From Octopus sinensis (taxonomy: Eukaryota), in NCBI RefSeq assembly GCF_006345805.1, contig NC_042997.1, positions 80,476,001 through 80,540,000 on the forward strand: 64,000 nt of DNA. The letters run 5' to 3'. Below the pieces are notes generated by a model. That model was not told where the DNA came from. It saw nothing but the letters and a program-made list of their open reading frames with translations, and ran no database searches. Below are positions 7,228-30,106 of this stretch, piece by piece. Numbering within the stretch: the first letter of the stretch is position 1; every line of letters starts with the position of its first letter. A program made the translations under genes and the position numbers.

Positions 7228-8041
7228 ACACTCACTGGTTTAATTTCCACTCATTTACTTTTTCTAAAATTTTCATTGCTTCTTGCAACCTCTTCAATAG
7301 TCGTTGACTCTGTCCATTATTGGAGCTGTGTTCTTTCTGTTTGTTTGTTTGTGTGCACGTCTATACACATATGTATATGTGTGTGAGTGTGTTTGTGTGT
7401 GTGCTTCTGTCTCCTTGTGTGTGTCTATGTGTATGGGTTTGTGTGGCTATATGTGTCTGTTATGGGTGGATGTGTGTCTCCGTGTGTGTGTGTATATAGT
7501 CATGTGTTTCAGTCTTCTTTTGTGTATGTATGTATCTGTGTGTGTACCTATATACTTATCTATCAGTTTACTTATATATCCATTTACCTACTTATATATA
7601 AGTAGGTAAATGGATATGTAAGTAAACTGATAGATAAGTAGATAGATAATACATACAGACAAGCACACACATACATACATACATACACAAAAGAAGACTG
7701 AAACACACGGCCATATACACACACACAAGGACACACATCCATGCATAACAAATGCATGTACATAGTCACATAAACCCATACATATTGGAACACACAAACA
7801 TGAACACATGAATATGCAGAATACATACAAACGTACACACACACATACATATATAAATGCATAAACACACGCATATATACATACACACACACACATGTGT
7901 GTATACACATGTGCACAAACAAACAAATAAAAAGAACACAGCTCTGATAATGGACAGAGTCAGTGACTATTGAAGAGGTTACAAGAAGCAACGGAAATTT
8001 TATAAAAAAAGAAAAAAGAGTGGAAAAGAAACTTGTGAGTG
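7228..8041. repeat. About 810 bp spacerless imperfect palindrome, Penelope-pLTR-like
   Basis: Centre cctacttata|tataagtagg at 7596/7597; outer arms 'ctcttcaatagtcgttgactctgtccattat' and 'ataatggacagagtcagtgactattgaagag'. Confidence 0.85.
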
Positions 8042-20898: not shown

Positions 20899-20929
<31 letters not shown>

Positions 20930-21072
20930 TTCAGCAAAACAATTAAGATTCAAATAAATTCAAATGAATATGGTACTTAACTTAGATGCACCAGAATTCT
21001 TTATGGTATTAACCATAAAATTATGTGGGGTGATTATAACCAAGAAAAAAGCAACAAGAATGGATCGGTAGT

Positions 21073-21159
21073 TTTCATACAATTGTTTCATACTATAAAC
21101 ATTTTATTTAAAGCTGCAAATATTACAGCAAATATAATGTCAAGTATTCATCAGCTAAA
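21073..21159 (-). ncRNA. Type-I hammerhead motif with stem I disrupted
   Basis: tttag-CTGATGA-atact...agtat-GAAA-caattg-TA-tgaaa (ctaaa required for stem I). Confidence 0.6.
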
Positions 21160-21801
21160 TCACATATAGGTTTTCCAAAACATCTTAGAGAGTGTAAATA
21201 TCCTTATGAAGTTATAGGAGTGAGTTCCATGAATTTGAAGTAGGATTCCAAGCAGACTATATATGTATTCCAACAATGCAAAGTTTTTAAAATGATTATT
21301 AACATCCCAGAGAAGATAAATCTACTCATAAAGATGTGGATATAAGTTCCAAGAGACATGAGGAAAGATGCTGGTCAAATGGGGATGTAAGAAGGAATAA
21401 AGATACCACAGACAAAGTTCAGTCTATATCTGTGGTGACAGAAAATCTAGGTCAGTGTAGAAGGAATCTTAAATTCATAAAAGAACTGTAAGTTTGACCA
21501 CCACTAACTCTGAATTGAGAAATTCACAGAATTAATGGTGGGATTAAGAATACAGGAAGATCAAAGGAAAACACTAAAGGGGTCATAGGTTATCGGTAGA
21601 GGGAGATACAGTAAGAAAATTAAGGTTAACACTGAGTAGATTTATCTTCTCTGGGATGTTAATAATCAATTTAAAAACTTTGCATTGTTGGAATACATAT
21701 ATAGTCTGCTTGGAATCCTACTTCAAATTCATGGAACTCACTCCTATAACTTCATAAGGATATTTACACTCTCTAAGATGTTTTGGAAAACCTATATGTG
21801 A

Positions 21802-22039
21802 TTTAGCTGATGAATACTTGACATTATATTTGCTGTAATATTTGCAGCTTTAAATAAAATGTTTATAGTATGAAACATCATCATCCATCATCCTCATTTA
21901 ACGTCCGCTTTCCATGCTAGCATGGGTTGGACGGTTCAACTGGAGTCTGGGGAGCCCGAAGGCTGCACCAGGCCAGTCAGATCTGGCAGTGTTTCTACAG
22001 CTGGATGCCCTTCCTAACGCCAACCACTCCTGTACTAAA
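21802..22039 (+). ncRNA. Type-I hammerhead motif interrupted by an RTE fragment
   Basis: tttag-CTGATGA-atact...agtat-GAAA-ca[153 bp RTE]tg-TA-ctaaa. Confidence 0.65.
21878..22030 (-). mobile_element. Young RTE 3'-terminal fragment (subfamily A)
   Basis: Nearly identical to 25034-25184. Confidence 0.92.
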
Positions 22040-23179
22040 ACTACCGATCCATTCTTGTTGCTTTTTTCTTGGTTATATATATATATATATAAATTATTAG
22101 CAATGGAAGCAGCATTAATATCAAACAGTAATCTTTATATCCAACTTAACATGGATGTCTTGTTAGAACAGTGAATGCTGTGTTATTAGCGTTGAGGGAG
22201 CCACTCCTATAGGTGCTTGGTGCATAAAAGCACACACATATCATAGCAGATGAGAACCATCTATCATGAGCATGGGAATTCTCATATCACATGATTTCAT
22301 TCTACTGGAAATCATCAGTGGGAAGCATTTGGTCATCACATAGTAGTCAAATCTTGCAGTAATGATATATAGAATACCTTCATCATTTAAACACTGCTGT
22401 TGCAAATAGCCAGCAGGTTTGTTAAAAATTAATTATTGGTGATGGAAGTAGTATCAATACCAAAAGGTAATCTCAACTGCTACAATAAATATCAGTGATA
22501 GATGAAAATGCAGCCAAGCAGCAGTCAGCATGAGTGCTCAATACATTTCAGTCGTTTTGAGCCACCCACATGCCTCTGATATAACATTCACTGATGTAGC
22601 AAACAGCTGCTTAACTGATTAAAACTCTGGTATATGCAATTGAGGCAATATTTAATTTTAAAATAATCATCTATAAGTCATAATATACATACAGTTTTGA
22701 TAGGCTAGTTACTGGGATATTTGTCCTAAGAGAACATCTATTTTGGACTTGCTGTGTTAAAAATATGATTAATGGATGACAGTTCAAGAGTGTATATACA
22801 TTTACACAGCTGGTGATTTGTATCTATGTATATATGTTTTTATGAGATTAGATACATACATGTACATATACGAAAGAGAAATTCAGTTAGAGGCAAAAAT
22901 AAATTAAAAACATACAATTGAAACAGTTTATAGAATTAGAAAAAAAAAAAAATGAAATTAAGTATGAAAATTTCAATACAATTTTCTGTTGTGTACAGTC
23001 ATCACATTGTTGAATTAGGTTACTACTAACGTGACAATTTCAGCAGTGAAAACTTAAAATTACAGAAGACTGAAATTAAGGCAACACATGAATTGTGTTG
23101 TTTCTAAGTATAAGAACTAGTTGATGAATCTTATTAGACAAGTGCTCTTCTTACTTTATATTATATTATATAAATATAT

Positions 23180-23527: not shown

Positions 23528-24743
23528 TTGGGTCATCCCATAAATAATGTATTTTTTTAATACTTCTTTTATTTTTCAAAATTCAGATAAACAGTTCTTT
23601 TTTGATCTAAACCAGATTGTCCTTCATTTTCTACAATGCTTTTCCATCTATCTGGTAGACTTGCAAGGCCCCACTTACAAAATTCACTTGTCTGTGATGA
23701 AAAATAGTCCTCCTGTACTGTTCTGACCTTGTCTACAGAATTCATGTTTTCCATCCAAATGATTCTGAAGATTGCAGAATAAATGATAATCAGATGGGTG
23801 TAATGTCCAACAAATATGGTGGGTGGGGCATTGTTTCCCATTCAAACTGCTCCAGCATTTAGAATGTGAGTCTCACAGTATCTGACAGAGCATTATCCTG
23901 ATGGAAGAACACCATCTTGAAATCAAAGATGGTCGTTTTTCTTCTAGCACTGACTTAAGCCGCTCAAGCTGCTCACATTAGATCTTTGTTATCATTTGGT
24001 TTGGCTTTAAAAGTTTGAAGTGGACTAAACCTTCCATATCCCACCAAACAGATAACAACACCTTATGTGGGTGAAGACCTTCTTTAGCTAGTGTTTCTCC
24101 TTTCCTTACCCACTCTTCAGTGCTTGGCATTTTATAGAGAACCCATTTCTCATCACCAGTCATTATTCAGTTCAAAAAAGGTTCATTCGTGAGATGTATC
24201 AGAAAAGAAGCGCACATATTCACTCTCTGGAGTACGATTAGACTTGGAAAGTTTGTGAGGAGTCCACTGACCCAATTTGCAGGTGTTGATGGATGGTTGA
24301 ATAACCAAATCCAAGCTTCTCTGTTATGATGGGATGATTTTGTTCCATCAGGGTTTGCAAGATATCCTCATCGAGCTCTACAGATCTTCCAGGACAAGGC
24401 TTGTCTTCTAGGCCGTAGTTTCAGGCTCAGAATTTCTGGAACCACTGTTGACAATGGCTTACGTTTATTGTCTGATCCCCATATAATGCATTCCTCACAC
24501 TTGTGTTGTTTCCTTTATTGAACTCATAAAGTAAAATATGCCAAATATGCTCACTTCCATTACAGTTTTGTAAAAATAACTATTAAAATCGAACTGTACT
24601 CTTCAAAACTTGCAATAAGAATAAGTACAAGGTAAAATTACTACCTGCTTTTATAGCAAGTTGATGCAGGTAGTTTATCCCATCTACCTCCAACTTTTAG
24701 TTCATACAAATGAAAAATCCACATTATTTATAGGATGACCCAA
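23528..24743 (-). mobile_element. Full-length degenerate mariner element with pseudogenised transposase
   Basis: TA|ttgggtcatcccataaataatg...cattatttataggatgacccaa|TA; peptides TGDEKWVLY, LHPHKVLLSVWWD, LPDRWKSIVENEG. Confidence 0.92.
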
Positions 24744-25011: not shown

Positions 25012-25199
25012 ATGTGTATGCGTGTATATATATCATCATCATCATCATCATTTAACGTCCGCTTTCCATGCTAGCATGGGTTGGACGGTTCAACTGGGGT
25101 CTGGGGAGCCCGAAGGCTGCACCAGGCCAGTCAGATCTGGCAGTGTTTCTACAGCTGGATGCCCTTCCTAACGCCAACCACTCCGAGAGTGTAGTGGGT

Positions 25200-25545
25200 G
25201 ATTTTATGTGCCACCGACACAGGTGCCAGACGAGGCCGGCGAACGGCCACGCTCGGATGGTGTTTTTATGTGCCACCGACACAGGTGCCAGACGAGGCTG
25301 GCAAACGGCCACGCTCGGATGGTGTTTTTATGTGCCACCGACACAGGTGCCAGACAAGGCTAGCAGACGACCACGCTCGGATGGTGTTTTTTATGTGCCA
25401 CCGACACAGGAGCCAGATGAGGCTGGCGATCGGCCACGATCGGATGGTGATTGTTACGTGCCCACAGCATGCAGGCCAGTCGGTGCGGTACTGGCTACGG
25501 CCACATTTGGATGGTTTTCTTGTGTGCCACAGGCACTGGTACCAC
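25200..25545 (-). repeat. RTE 3' UTR tandem array, 6 units of ~62-64 bp
   Basis: Repeated ttttatgtgccaccgacacaggtgccagac...ccacgctcggatggtg. Confidence 0.9.
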
Positions 25546-25700
25546 AGAGATACAAATTCCATTGATGTTCATCTATTTTGATTTTGTTTGATTTTTTGAT
25601 TTACACTTGCCTCAACAGGTCTTCACAAGTGTCACAAGAAGGAAGGTATGCACAGGTGGACTGACTACGTCCCAGGTAGGGGCCACGGGTTATGGCCTGA

Positions 25701-27111
25701 CTAGTCTTGCCGGGTCTTCTCACGCACAGCATACTTCCATAGGTCTCGGTCTCTAGTCATTTCCTTGGTGAGACCTAAAGTTCGAAGGTCGTGCTTCACC
25801 ACTTCGTCCCAGGTTTTCCTGGGTCTACCTCTTCCACAGGTTCCCTCAACTGTTAGGGTGTAGCACTTTTGTACACAACTATCTTCAGCCATTCTCGTCA
25901 TATGACCATACCAGCGCAGCCGTCTCTCTTGCACACCACAACTGACGCTTCTTAGGTTCAACTTTTCTCTCAAGGTACTTACACTTTGACGATTATGAAC
26001 ACTGACATTACACATCCATCGGAGCATACTGGCTTCATTTCTTGCGAGCTTACGCATATCCTCAGCAGTCACGGCCCATGTTTCACTACCATGTAGCATG
26101 GCTGTACGTACACATGCATCATACAGTCTGCCTTTTACTCTGAGCGAGAGGCCTTTTGTCACCAGCAGGGGTAAGAGCTCTCTAAACTTTGCCCAGGCTA
26201 TTCTTACTCTAGCAGTTACACTTTCAGCACACCCACCCCCGCTACTGACTTGGTCTCCTAGGTAGCGGAAGCTATCAACTACTTCTAGTTTGTCTCCCTG
26301 GAACGTGGTAGAAGTTGGTCTCTGCACATTTCCAGTGTTTATTTCTCCTGAGCATCTGCCACATATGAAAACTATCTTCCCAGTTAGCCTACCTTTGACA
26401 TTGCTGCACCTCTTATGTGTCCATAGCTTACACTTGGTGCACCTTATAGAGTTTCTACCTACACCTTTTTTACAGATCGAGCAGGGCCATCTACCTGAAG
26501 TCGTTTGTTGTTGGTCCACCTTCCTACTTATTAGGACTTTGGTTTTGGCTAGGTTGATTCTAAGGCCTTTCGATTCTAATCCTTGTTTCCACACCTGAAA
26601 CTTCTCCTCCAGTTCTGTTAGTGACTCAGCAATTAGAGCAAGGTCATCAGCATAGAGGAGCTCCCAAGGGCATCCTGTCTTGAATTCTTCCGTTATTGCC
26701 TGGAGGACTATGATAAATAGGAGGGGGCTGAGGACTGAACCTTGGTGGACCCCAACCTCTACCCGGAATTCTTCACTGTACTCGTTGCCAACCCTCACCT
26801 TACTAGCAGCGTCTCTGTACATGGCTCGCACAGCTCTCACTAACCATTCATCTATCCCTAGTTTCCTCATTGACCACCAGATAAGGGATCGGGGGACCCT
26901 GTCAAAGGCTTTCTCCAAGTCAACAAAAGCCAGGTACAAGGGCTTACCTTTGGCTAGGTATTTCTCCTGCAGCTGTCTTACCAGGAATATAGCATCAGTA
27001 GTACTTTTCCCTGGCACAAACCCAAACTGCATATCATCTAAGCTAACTCTCTCTCTAATTAATTGGGCTATAACCCTCTCCGTAACCTTCATTACCTGAT
27101 CCAGCAGCTTG
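25701..27111 (-). CDS. RTE reverse transcriptase segment, open frame, with internal C4HC3 finger
   Basis: QFGF, DLEKAFD, GVHQGSVLSP, LLYADD, FRYLG, GRGRPRKTW motifs. Confidence 0.93.
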
Positions 27112-27112
27112 G

Positions 27113-28093
27113 ATCGACTACATCCTTGCCAGAAAAAGGGAAAGACGGCTGCTTATAAATGCCAAAATCTTTCCAGGCGAAGAATGCACCCCACAACATA
27201 GACTGGTAGTTAGTGACTTTAGGATCAGGACTAAGAGGGCGACTAGAAGACGACCAACATGGAGAAGAAGGGTCTGGAAGCTTAAAGACCCTGCGAATGG
27301 ACAGAGATTTAGAGACATGTTACTTGAAGCCTTTGACGAAATGGAAGGGGGTATAGCTACGCATGGGGTAGAAGACAACTGGGCGCTTCTGAGGGACAAC
27401 CTGCTGAAAGCCACTGACCAGATCTGCGGCTGGTGCAAAGTCCCTTTAAGACCCAAAATAACGTGGTGGTGGAACAATATTATTGACTGGGCTATTAGAC
27501 AAAAGAAACAGGCTTGGAAGAACGGTGGTAGCAGGGAAGTGTATCAGACTGCCAGAAGGGAAGCTAGGAGACAGGTCTATCTAGCCAGAGGGGAAGCAGA
27601 TAAGAGAAAATTTGCCAATGTCCTGCGCCGTGAGGATGAAAGACTTGAGGTATTTCGTGTTGCAAGACAGTGTGTGAGAGAGAATCGTGATGTGGTAGGA
27701 GAGAAATATGTTCGCAAGGATGACGGTTCACTTGCGCTAAATGAGGATGCAAAGAGAGAGGCTTGGAGACGCCACTATGAAAGGTTGCTGAATGAGGAAA
27801 ATGAATGGGATAAAGAGAGTCTGCCGAATGTTGACCCAACAGAGGGACCAGCTATCCGAGTTGATAGTTCCGTGGTAGCTAAGGCAATTAGAAGCATGAA
27901 GACAGGGAAAGCCCCAGGCCCATCAGGAATTACTGCAGAGATGCTCAAAATATCTGGTAGTGTCGGCTATAGCATAGTCACCCGTATAGTTAACCAGGTG
28001 ATACACGAAGGAGTCATACCCAATGACTGGTGTAGCAGCATAATAGTCAACTGCTACAAAGGTAAAGGCGACGCCCTAGATACAAGTAATTAC
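27113..28093 (+). CDS. Inverted RTE segment: end of APE, linker and RT domain 0 (open frame)
   Basis: IDYILARK...PQHRLVV...KTGKAPGPSGI...PNDW...YKGKGDALDTSNY. Confidence 0.9.
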
Positions 28094-29035
28094 TGGGGTG
28101 GGGAAATGCCACTCTCTCCAACCTTATTTTGCTTTCCAAGTGGGATTTGAAAAGGTCCATGACAGCTTAGCTTAGAATGAAAGAGTTTATCCTCAGTCTT
28201 TTCAGCCTCGTCCACTGCCCAACCTCTTTTGCCATACCCACTAAACAGAAATGAATTGCCTGCCCTTCACGGTTAAAGGAAGGGTAGGCAGTTTTCCTCC
28301 ACTGTCTTTCTCTGGTTAATTTTTACTCCTGTTACAACTTCGTATTCTCTCAGAGCAGCGCCCATTATCTCGATGTATCTACTGCCCGACACTCTTATAA
28401 TGACTTTGTCTGCAGTTGATGAAACCAGTCTCCGACATCCTCTTCACGTGAGGTGCACCTCGATAACTCTTACCCCCGCAACAATGGCTCGAGTGCCTGC
28501 GCGTACCTATGGAACGAGAGGAGGAAGCCCTGACGGAACAAACCGAACGCTTCCGATAAACCAATAGTTCTCAACCGGGATCCATACGACCCTGAGGTTC
28601 CATATAAAATATATGGGTATATTCACAAAAACAGTAAATTGGGGATTCCTGATAGTATTTTAAGGGTCTCTGAAAAGTTTTGCATTAGATATATTTATTG
28701 GGATGTTTCTTGTAAGAAACAGCTAGGTTTTTTCCTTTGATATTTTACACAGTTCGTCCGACACAAGTCAATGCATAAAAAAACAAGATAGGAATTTTGA
28801 AGAAGTTGAGACTGCATTGTAAACATCGAATGGCTATGAGGGTCCACCAGAAGAAAATAATATTCAAAGGGGTCCACAGATAAAAAGAAATGGTTGAGAA
28901 ACCCTGCGATAGACCGTCATTTTTCTCTGACCACCGCCAAGGTGTTGCAGTACACTGCAGCGATCCAATAACTGAATACGGGATCGAAGCAAGATACCGT
29001 GAGGACAGCTGCCACATATTGAGGGTTAACCCTAT
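28094..29035 (-). pseudogene. Old L1/Tx1-type RT relic inside the RTE
   Basis: RQGFLLSFHRYAQALEPLL (cf. RQGCPLSP.L..LALEPLL), ADKVII...LREYEVVTGVKINQRKT, C-terminal MAKEVGQWTR...LFKSHLESKIRLER. Confidence 0.75.
28562..28906. mobile_element. hAT (Charlie-like) MITE
   Basis: TIRs caatagttctcaacc and ggttgagaaaccctg; 8 bp TSD cgataaac/cgatagac; paralog at 62205. Confidence 0.85.
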
Positions 29036-29244: not shown

Positions 29245-29729
29245 GTAGTCGATTTGGCTAGTATGCCGGCCCGATCGGTAGGTGACCAGGTGGCTTGTTG
29301 GTTTCCTGAAGTTAGTGTTGCAGACCATAAGACTATTCGCATCGCAGAACTCCAGCAGCCTGGTTCCCTCCTCGTTGCGGGAACCATAACCGTAGCCTCC
29401 ATGTACGCCATGGAAGCCCCCAGCATGTCGTCCAACATGCCCATTGAAATCACCAGCCACAAAGAGAAGGTCCCTGTCGTTCGTCAATGAGGTGGTCTGC
29501 AGTAGGGTGTCATAGAAACTGTCTTTCTGTCCATCGGGTAGCCCTGGCTGAGGGGCATAGGCCGATATGATGGTTGCTAATCTATTATGAAGCACTATTC
29601 TAATCTTAAGTATTCTGTCACTTACTCTGATTACCTCAATTACTCTATCTACCCATTTCTCAGCGATAAGTATACCCACGCCACCAACCCCGTCAGTGTT
29701 CCCTGCCCAGAAAATCTTGTACCTGTGTT
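29245..29729 (-). CDS. RTE AP-endonuclease segment, 5'-truncated, open frame
   Basis: GGVGIL, ISAYAPQ, AGDFNGHVG, RNEEGTRLLEFC, TSQIDY. Confidence 0.92.
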
Positions 29730-29749
29730 AATATATATATATATATATA

Positions 29750-30062
29750 ATAAATATTAGGGAATAAATCCAAATTTACAGGGAAAAAAATCAGATTTAG
29801 GATTAAATCCAATTTTATAGTAAAATATTATAAAATATTATTAGAGACAAAACCACTATTTTGCAAAACAAACAAGGAAAGACTTAATCAATACATAATC
29901 AATTCATAATTTGAAACTGACTTATTGGAAGTCCACCTGAAGATTGTCGATCAAGACAAGAAACGATTGTAGTGGCGGTTTTTTTGACTATTTATTAAAG
30001 TTTTATGTATTGATTAAGTCTTTCCTTGTTTGTTTTGCAAAATAGTGGTTTTGTCTCTAATA

Positions 30063-30072
<10 letters not shown>
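29750..30072. mobile_element. Penelope-pLTR-like element in (TA)n with 70 bp inverted repeat
   Basis: 29829-29898 is the reverse complement of 30003-30072; the spacer holds a hammerhead. Confidence 0.75.
29933..29975 (+). ncRNA. Minimal type-I hammerhead ribozyme
   Basis: ccac-CTGAAGA-ttgtc-gatcaa-gacaa-GAAA-cgattg-TA-gtgg: full catalytic core, stems I and II paired, near-palindromic stem III, GUA cleavage triplet. Confidence 0.8.

Positions 30073-30106
<34 letters not shown>

What the first reader, a model, noticed from the sequence alone, without database searches (positions are those of the whole stretch)
20928..22076. Near-perfect ~290 bp inverted arms, each with a hammerhead, each disabled in a different way
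Seen: each arm carries tttag-CUGAUGA-auacu...aguau-GAAA-caauug-UA with an extended stem II (acatt/aatgt, gctgtaa/ttgcagc). The left copy (minus strand) has two substitutions, both in the 3' strand of stem I; only one other arm mismatch was seen. The right copy (plus strand) keeps stem I but is split by an RTE fragment. The sequence is unrelated to the 29933 ribozyme, so this is a second family. Inference: an inverted pLTR pair; loss of self-cleavage on both strands might reflect selection inside a transcribed locus, though two events can be chance.
Basis: partly seen in the sequence, partly recalled or inferred. Interest (0 to 1): 0.75.

Follow-up and report, generated by a model that had tools for sequence, protein, structure and literature searches.

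The report
Decayed inverted Penelope retrotransposon copy
This is one truncated, back-to-back copy of an abundant Penelope-type jumping gene; its two ribozyme motifs are both damaged, most likely by ordinary decay rather than by selection, because other copies of the family are damaged at the rate chance predicts.

Summary
There are 292-bp inverted arms with 3 mismatches, a hammerhead in each, two adjacent stem I changes on the left, and a 153-bp LINE tail splitting the right one. The arms are the end repeat of an abundant Penelope-like family whose long copies encode a reverse transcriptase with Hydra-clade motifs. An inverted 5'-truncated partial copy is the normal insertion form: 24 head-to-head pairs among the fetched loci, and it is in print. 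The ribozyme fold covaries across subfamilies. Selection for lost cleavage is not supported. After insertion, ribozyme sites decay at the background rate (1.47% vs 1.60%). Both ribozymes are hit in 2 of 17 other pairs, against 2.1 expected. The two left changes are probably one slippage event, and the insert comes from a very young family. A read-through RNA is predicted to bury either ribozyme in a ~290-bp duplex anyway. No host gene was found. One side result: the arms of a pair end at different fixed sites (18 A+B, none alike, of 24). The scan noted this rule before in other families of this genome. Verdict: new member of a known kind; low interest.

The parts
20902..20929 (.). (TA)n target microsatellite, left side
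   Evidence: sequence; most family copies end in (TA)n
20928..21034 (-). 107-nt 'tail' between the two fixed ends (distal end B at about 20928, proximal end A at 21035); present on the left arm only
   Evidence: in L122 the equivalent tail runs on into the 5' leader before the ORF
21035..21328 (-). left arm: end repeat (pLTR) of the main, sense copy
   Evidence: 95-97% identical to the closest paralogs
21073..21159 (-). left hammerhead, type I, long stem II, palindromic 6-nt stem/loop III; positions 21077-21076 changed; stem I predicted not to form
21329..21632 (-). 3' non-coding region of the element (starts about 345 nt after the ORF stop in L023), with a 104-nt deletion at 21377/21378 relative to paralogs
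21632..21633 (.). inversion junction; imperfect ~8-nt similarity to the paralog continuation
21633..21877 (+). right arm, part 1: inverted 5'-truncated partial copy; holds stem I 5' strand, core, stem II and GAAA (21802-21877)
21878..22030 (-). 153-nt 3'-terminal fragment of a very young, abundant LINE (short-repeat tail at 21878); inserted in stem/loop III, 2 nt of target lost, no target duplication
   Evidence: 40 of 40 scored genomic matches are 100% identical over the 131 nt searched, this copy included; 98% to the 3' end of the LINE at 25032-27152, which has RVT_1
22031..22077 (+). right arm, part 2: cleavage triplet, intact 3' strand of stem I, proximal end A
22074..22091 (.). (TA)n target microsatellite, right side
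   Evidence: sequence

Best explanation
The locus is a 5'-truncated copy of a Penelope-like retrotransposon with Hydra-clade protein motifs, laid down in a (TA)n microsatellite with an inverted partial copy attached; its two hammerheads were most likely damaged afterwards by neutral, unrelated events. Shown: the arms are the family's end repeat, both arms come from one template, and head-to-head pairs with one long and one short end are the family norm. Inferred: reverse transcription primed at nicks on both strands of the (TA)n target, starting at two fixed sites of the element RNA, made the two arms. Inferred: a slippage onto the neighbouring 8-nt repeat changed the two stem I bases in one event, and an active LINE later dropped its last 153 nt into the right ribozyme. 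Predicted: neither ribozyme was much of a target for selection, because on each strand the complementary arm is transcribed before the ribozyme and pairs with it, and this short-stem-III type usually needs a second same-strand copy or protein help.
For: Family: 1370 first-look candidates, 40 scored, for the arm; 119 exact matches to a 33-nt ribozyme pattern against 0 for the control. [quoted passage not shown] 24 distinct head-to-head pairs with varied junctions: 18 A+B, 0 A+A or B+B, 6 with an end elsewhere. Both arms share 3 substitutions seen in 2 of 44, 0 of 44 and 0 of 46 paralog segments. Covariation: 9 of 24 pairs change on both sides, 93% of cells paired, 0 of 500 shuffles as high. Decay: 24 of 81 copies carry a lesion; rare changes 1.47% at 26 critical sites vs 1.60% elsewhere (p=0.78), all changes 1.9% vs 8.9%; both arms hit in 2 of 17 other pairs, 2.1 expected; paired 12 of 34 vs others 11 of 46, p=0.32 (pair tallies by hand). 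Left change creates an exact 8-nt direct repeat at 13-nt spacing. Insert family is young; three other copies carry other insertions, one 2 nt before GAAA. Whole-locus fold gives 285 and 291 inter-arm pairs that include the cores. Literature: inverted copy and one-sided tail (PMC8557442, PMC3846280), opposite-strand hammerhead pairs 100-700 bp apart and the dimer requirement (PMC4209133), two RT start sites and both-strand extension (PMC11167929).
Against: This pair is young (3 mismatches in 292 nt). Given only 3-4 events, the chance that both ribozymes are hit is about 1-4%, and the two lesions lie only about 5-7 nt apart in mirror position, so this locus taken alone is an unusual draw. Part of the sample (L086-L115) was picked by a pattern that demands an intact 5' core, which biases it toward intact copies. 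The covariation control does not correct for relatedness. Host transcription was not measured. Pfam and PDB gave no hit for the ORFs, and no tree was built.
Confidence: 0.85

Rival explanations
1. The two lesions are mechanically linked rather than independent: one repair episode in the hairpin-prone locus (a break at the AT-rich ribozyme end, or processing of the 153-nt loop) caused both the LINE capture and the templated two-base change. Still no selection.
For: The lesions are about 5-7 nt apart in mirror position. The insert has no target duplication and lost 2 nt of target. A second copy (L016) has a SINE-like insert 2 nt before GAAA, so 2 of 4 insertions seen in fetched copies fall within 7 nt. 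Small duplications of the same unit occur in L034 and L107.
Against: The slip can be explained by the neighbouring repeat within the left arm alone. The LINE junction does not recur: 2 genomic matches, this site and one unrelated. Numbers are small.
Confidence: 0.07
2. The left two-base change, or the exact arm sequence, is an assembly consensus error or a private allele, so the double loss is not a stable feature.
For: The change is unique: 1 of 4 pattern matches in the genome. Two of the variants shared by both arms are +1 homopolymer changes.
Against: The arms also share 3 non-homopolymer private substitutions and differ from each other. The architecture follows the family's long-end/short-end rule, which a misassembly would not be expected to do.
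Confidence: 0.05
3. Selection removed self-cleavage on both strands because the copy lies in a transcribed locus.
For: 1-4% chance of a double hit for a pair this young; both lesions are predicted to abolish stem I pairing.
Against: No excess of lesions at critical sites, in paired copies, or as double hits. No host exon among 150 of 370 candidate frames. The ribozymes are predicted to be buried in the inter-arm duplex. Even an intact paralog forms stem I with probability only about 0.07 in a 131-nt context. The locus was chosen after the fact among many pairs.
Confidence: 0.03

Closest known systems
Hydra clade of C-terminal EN+ Penelope-like elements (Craig et al. 2021, PMC8557442), e.g. Penelope-13_HM and Hydra-1_Obim
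   Same: RWK, DKT, CxCX5C, CxxC and CxH motifs; (TA)n target; hammerhead near the 3' end. Penelope-13_HM is listed with a 5'-truncated inverted copy and a hammerhead on each strand (supplement rows).
   Different: The hammerhead sequence differs from that listed for Hydra-1_oBim. The elements are longer (947-aa ORF with an Asn-rich linker; 4630 nt between same-strand ribozymes in L122) than the 'generally <3 kb' described. The tail is about 105 nt against the 30-40 nt described for PLEs.
Minimal and short-stem-III type I hammerheads of metazoan PLE pseudo-LTRs (Cervera and De la Pena 2014, PMC4209133)
   Same: CUGANGA and GAAA core, 4-5 bp stem I, long stem II, palindromic stem/loop III; opposite-strand pairs 100-700 bp apart already reported in Schistosoma.
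   Different: Stem II here is about 60 nt with internal loops. Cleavage activity of this family is untested.
Adineta vaga Penelope insertions (PMC3846280) and Anolis PAc (PMC11167929)
   Same: Inverted pLTR with a tail on one of the inverted ends; two reverse-transcription start sites define the tail; both target strands are cut and extended in vitro; Asn-rich inserts in A. vaga ORFs.
   Different: The PAc protein is of the Penelope/Poseidon clade. In the passages read, the one-sided tail is described as optional or frequent and is not counted as a strict rule.
MITEs and other terminal-inverted-repeat DNA transposons (recalled; considered)
   Same: Near-perfect long inverted arms.
   Different: The arms have unequal fixed outer ends and variable inner junctions, and they are the end repeat of an RT-encoding element.

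Membership tests
Penelope-like element, EN+ | single ORF with RT followed by GIY-YIG endonuclease linked to the repeat | tested here: met
   922- and 947-aa ORFs upstream of the arm sequence. Read from motifs and by eye against the Hydra alignment in PMC8557442's supplement; Pfam and PDB gave no hit. The window copy itself has no ORF.
Penelope-like element, EN+ | pseudo-LTRs in tandem and/or inverted arrangement, 5' truncation, tail at one end | tested here: met
   direct pLTR-ORF-pLTR in L122; 24 head-to-head pairs
Hydra clade | RWK motif and DKT motif | tested here: met
   both in P0001 and P0002
Hydra clade | CxCX5C linker; CxxC and CxH around the endonuclease end; no CCHH | tested here: met
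   pattern search; absence of CCHH read by eye (one Cys inside the core)
Hydra clade | (TA)n insertion and hammerhead present | tested here: met
Hydra clade | generally short (<3 kb); descriptive in the source, not diagnostic | tested here: not met
   unit about 4.6 kb in L122, Asn-rich linker 28% N
Hydra clade | RT phylogeny groups with Hydra elements | not tested
   no reference Hydra proteins were fetched into the session; no tree built
Type I hammerhead ribozyme | conserved core and three stems supported by covariation | tested here: met
   core almost invariant in 36 copies, which were picked by a core pattern; 9 of 24 pairs change on both sides; Rfam no hit
Type I hammerhead ribozyme | self-cleavage | not testable with these tools
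   needs an in vitro assay
Naiad clade (considered) | N-terminal GIY-YIG, DKA motif, no canonical hammerhead | tested here: not met
   endonuclease motif is C-terminal, DKT present, hammerhead present
RTE-clade LINE (the insert) | 3' end of an RT-encoding LINE with a short-repeat tail | tested here: met
RTE-clade LINE (the insert) | RT phylogeny in the RTE clade | not tested

The most novel reading that the evidence does not exclude
The strict one-long, one-short rule for the outer ends (18 A+B and no like-ended pair among 24, plus four tiny stubs and four further pairs read by eye) means that every inverted insertion of this Hydra-type family is made in one concerted step. Two reverse transcriptases prime on opposite strands of one (TA)n break, one at each of two fixed start sites about 105 nt apart on one RNA template. 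The family, with an intact 947-aa ORF in the genome, would then be a direct test system for how Penelope-like elements build head-to-head insertions.
Probability: 0.45. Interest if true: 0.4.

Novelty: new member of a known kind. Interest (0 to 1): 0.17.

Why it matters
As a locus it matters little: it is a decaying transposon copy. It is a useful caution for scans. In a genome with many hammerhead-bearing Penelope-like families, pairs with both ribozymes damaged arise at the chance rate and do not signal selection. The family may be of some use to specialists. It is a Hydra-type element with a covarying long-stem-II hammerhead, an intact ORF in a sister subfamily, and a strict pairing of two fixed ends that bears on the unresolved Penelope insertion mechanism.

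Tried and rejected
Rfam scan of the window: no hammerhead at E<=1. Pfam and PDB: no hit for the family ORFs. First guess of Naiad or Neptune clade: dropped after reading the Hydra description. Insert copied from the neighbouring LINE at 25032: not needed, since identical copies lie all over the genome. LINE targeting this ribozyme site: the junction pattern has 2 matches, only this one in the family; other offsets and the opposite orientation were not searched. A subfamily carrying the left change: none. The 104-nt deletion as a spliced intron: no GT-AG or similar ends on either strand. Host gene: 150 of 370 candidate frames scanned; only a mariner-type transposase fragment passed its cut-off, and four weak sub-threshold hits did not look like exons by eye; a large intron is not excluded. 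Sequencing runs: no RNA holder listed. Contigs of four runs covered the unique flanks but listed no record bridging either junction, and left 21678-21710 uncovered at 100% likeness; the tool states that such holes prove nothing, so the artefact and polymorphism tests are inconclusive. The look-ups of earlier findings by place near this window and by sequence returned nothing.

Full report
Observation. Aligning the two arms shows 245 nt (21084-21328 with 21633-21877) with one mismatch and 47 nt (21035-21081 with 22031-22077) with two adjacent mismatches. A 153-nt insert at 21878-22030 replaces 2 nt of the right arm. Rfam gave no hammerhead match. The hammerhead at 29933 belongs to another repeat family and shares only the core end.

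What the arms are. The arm is a genomic repeat: 1370 first-look candidates with 40 scored, all full-length matches 91-100% identical, and 119 exact matches to a 33-nt ribozyme pattern against none for the reversed control. The spacer is also part of the element; paralogs carry it with 104 further bases that this copy lacks. Longer copies place this sequence downstream of a long ORF. Two such proteins (922 and 947 aa, 71% identical) carry RWK, DKT, YxDD, a CxCx5C linker, a C-terminal GIY-YIG-like motif, CxxC and CxH. These are the features given for the Hydra clade in PMC8557442 (section 11 read), and the RT resembles by eye the Hydra rows of that paper's supplementary alignment. Pfam and PDB gave no hits, no tree was built, and the unit is longer than the '<3 kb' described. 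That paper lists an octopus Hydra family with a different hammerhead, and Penelope-13_HM with an inverted 5'-truncated copy and a hammerhead on each strand. One search for Penelope-like, Hydra clade, cephalopod and hammerhead returned only that paper. Repbase-type libraries and supplements of other papers were not seen, so this family may already be catalogued. That the host is an octopus is my inference from recalled repeat content.

Architecture. Read on the minus strand, the copy is a 5'-truncated element (3' non-coding region, end repeat, 107-nt tail) ending in (TA)n, with an inverted partial copy joined at its 5' end. Among the fetched loci there are 24 distinct head-to-head pairs, this one included, with varied inner junctions. 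In 18, one arm ends at a proximal site A and the other at a distal site B about 105 nt further on; none is A+A or B+B; 6 have an end elsewhere, among them this locus, whose A end is split off by the insert. Four tiny inverted stubs (L014, L017, L020, L108; read by eye) and four further pairs (L119, L124, L125, L127) fit the same rule. Earlier scan notes on other families gave me this lead. In print, the inverted copy and a tail on one end are standard (PMC8557442 passages; PMC3846280 passages). The Anolis element cuts and extends both target strands and starts reverse transcription at two sites that bound the tail (PMC11167929, parts 1-2 of 4 read). Both arms here share three substitutions that are rare or absent in paralog segments (2 of 44, 0 of 44, 0 of 46), so they come from one template or were homogenised later.

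The ribozyme. In 36 copies from this and sister subfamilies, picked by a core pattern, 93% of cells pair, 9 of 24 pairs change on both sides, and no shuffle of 500 reaches these values; slid controls pair 28-44%. The control does not correct for relatedness. Stem III is a single pair around a palindromic loop. PMC4209133 (parts 1-2 of 4 read) describes such ribozymes as working as dimers, found low activity in vitro, and already reports opposite-strand pairs 100-700 bp apart. L122 has the complete direct arrangement with two same-strand ribozymes around the ORF; the window copy has only one per strand.

The two lesions. Left: the changes at 21077-21076 give a wobble and a mismatch next to the cleavage site. 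Stem I is in the predicted fold of an intact paralog and absent from the left copy. In a 131-nt context its probability is about 0.07 for the paralog, at most 0.001 for the left copy and 0.002 for the right. The change is unique in the genome (1 of 4 pattern matches) and creates an exact 8-nt direct repeat at 13-nt spacing, so one slippage event is the simplest reading (inference). Right: the insert is the last 153 nt of a LINE whose longer copy lies at 25032-27152. All 40 scored matches are 100% identical over the 131 nt searched, so the family is very young. The junction does not recur in the family.

Selection or chance. Of 81 distinct copies covering the ribozyme in one piece, 24 have a lesion at 26 critical sites. 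All changes are depleted at these sites (1.9% vs 8.9%), as expected if propagating lineages keep the ribozyme. Rare changes, which stand for decay after insertion, are not depleted or enriched (1.47% vs 1.60%, p=0.78). By my hand tally, 2 of 17 other pairs have both ribozymes hit, against 2.1 expected, and paired copies (12 of 34) do not differ from the rest (11 of 46, p=0.32). Arms split by an insert (this right arm, L016) are not in these counts, and L086-L115 were chosen by an intact 5' core. Against the neutral reading: for a pair this young, with 3-4 events, a double hit has a chance of only 1-4%, and the lesions are close in mirror position. That is unremarkable for a locus picked after the fact among many pairs, but it leaves room for a linked repair event. 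Selection also lacks a clear target. The ribozymes point outward, so on either strand the complementary arm is made first, and the whole locus folds with 285 or 291 inter-arm pairs that include the core. No host exon was found in 150 of 370 candidate frames; a large intron is not excluded. Contigs of four runs could not test the junctions.

Other papers. PMC13282606 and PMC9115989 (passages) report recently active RTE and Penelope-like families in octopus genomes. The retrozyme preprint 10.64898/2026.07.22.740005 (passages) has no octopus data.

Verdict. An ordinary decayed insertion of a Hydra-type Penelope-like family (0.85). Linked repair 0.07, assembly error or private allele 0.05, selection 0.03. 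New member of a known kind; interest 0.17. The only part with specialist value is the strict pairing of the two fixed ends, which sharpens a feature already described in print and already noted by this scan in other families.

Noticed in passing
window 29729-30105: A second, unrelated repeat family: inverted arms with a hammerhead motif between them (29933, plus strand), flanked by (TA)n; 783 first-look candidates, 40 scored.
   Followed up: partly
window 25032-28150: LINE copy with the RT frame on the minus strand (25701-27152, RVT_1 plus a PHD-like finger) and the upstream part on the plus strand (27086-28150), apparently an internally inverted copy.
   Followed up: no
window 23981-24166 (minus): Mariner-type transposase fragment, Pfam Transposase_1, E=3e-12.
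   Followed up: no
L120:1498-4341: Intact 947-aa ORF of a sister subfamily with all Hydra motifs; the RT-endonuclease linker is 28% asparagine, recalling the N-rich inserts described for Adineta vaga Penelope elements.
   Followed up: partly
L120:5763-5851: Stem/loop III changes on both sides and stays palindromic; three related copies keep it through a G-U change. This fits pairing between two ribozyme copies.
   Followed up: partly
L016:760-1212: A 453-nt SINE-like insert splits another inverted arm 2 nt before the GAAA core, with a 4-nt overlap.
   Followed up: no
window 7554-7639: Near-perfect AT-rich palindrome of about 85 nt that draws sub-threshold miRNA-family hits.
   Followed up: no
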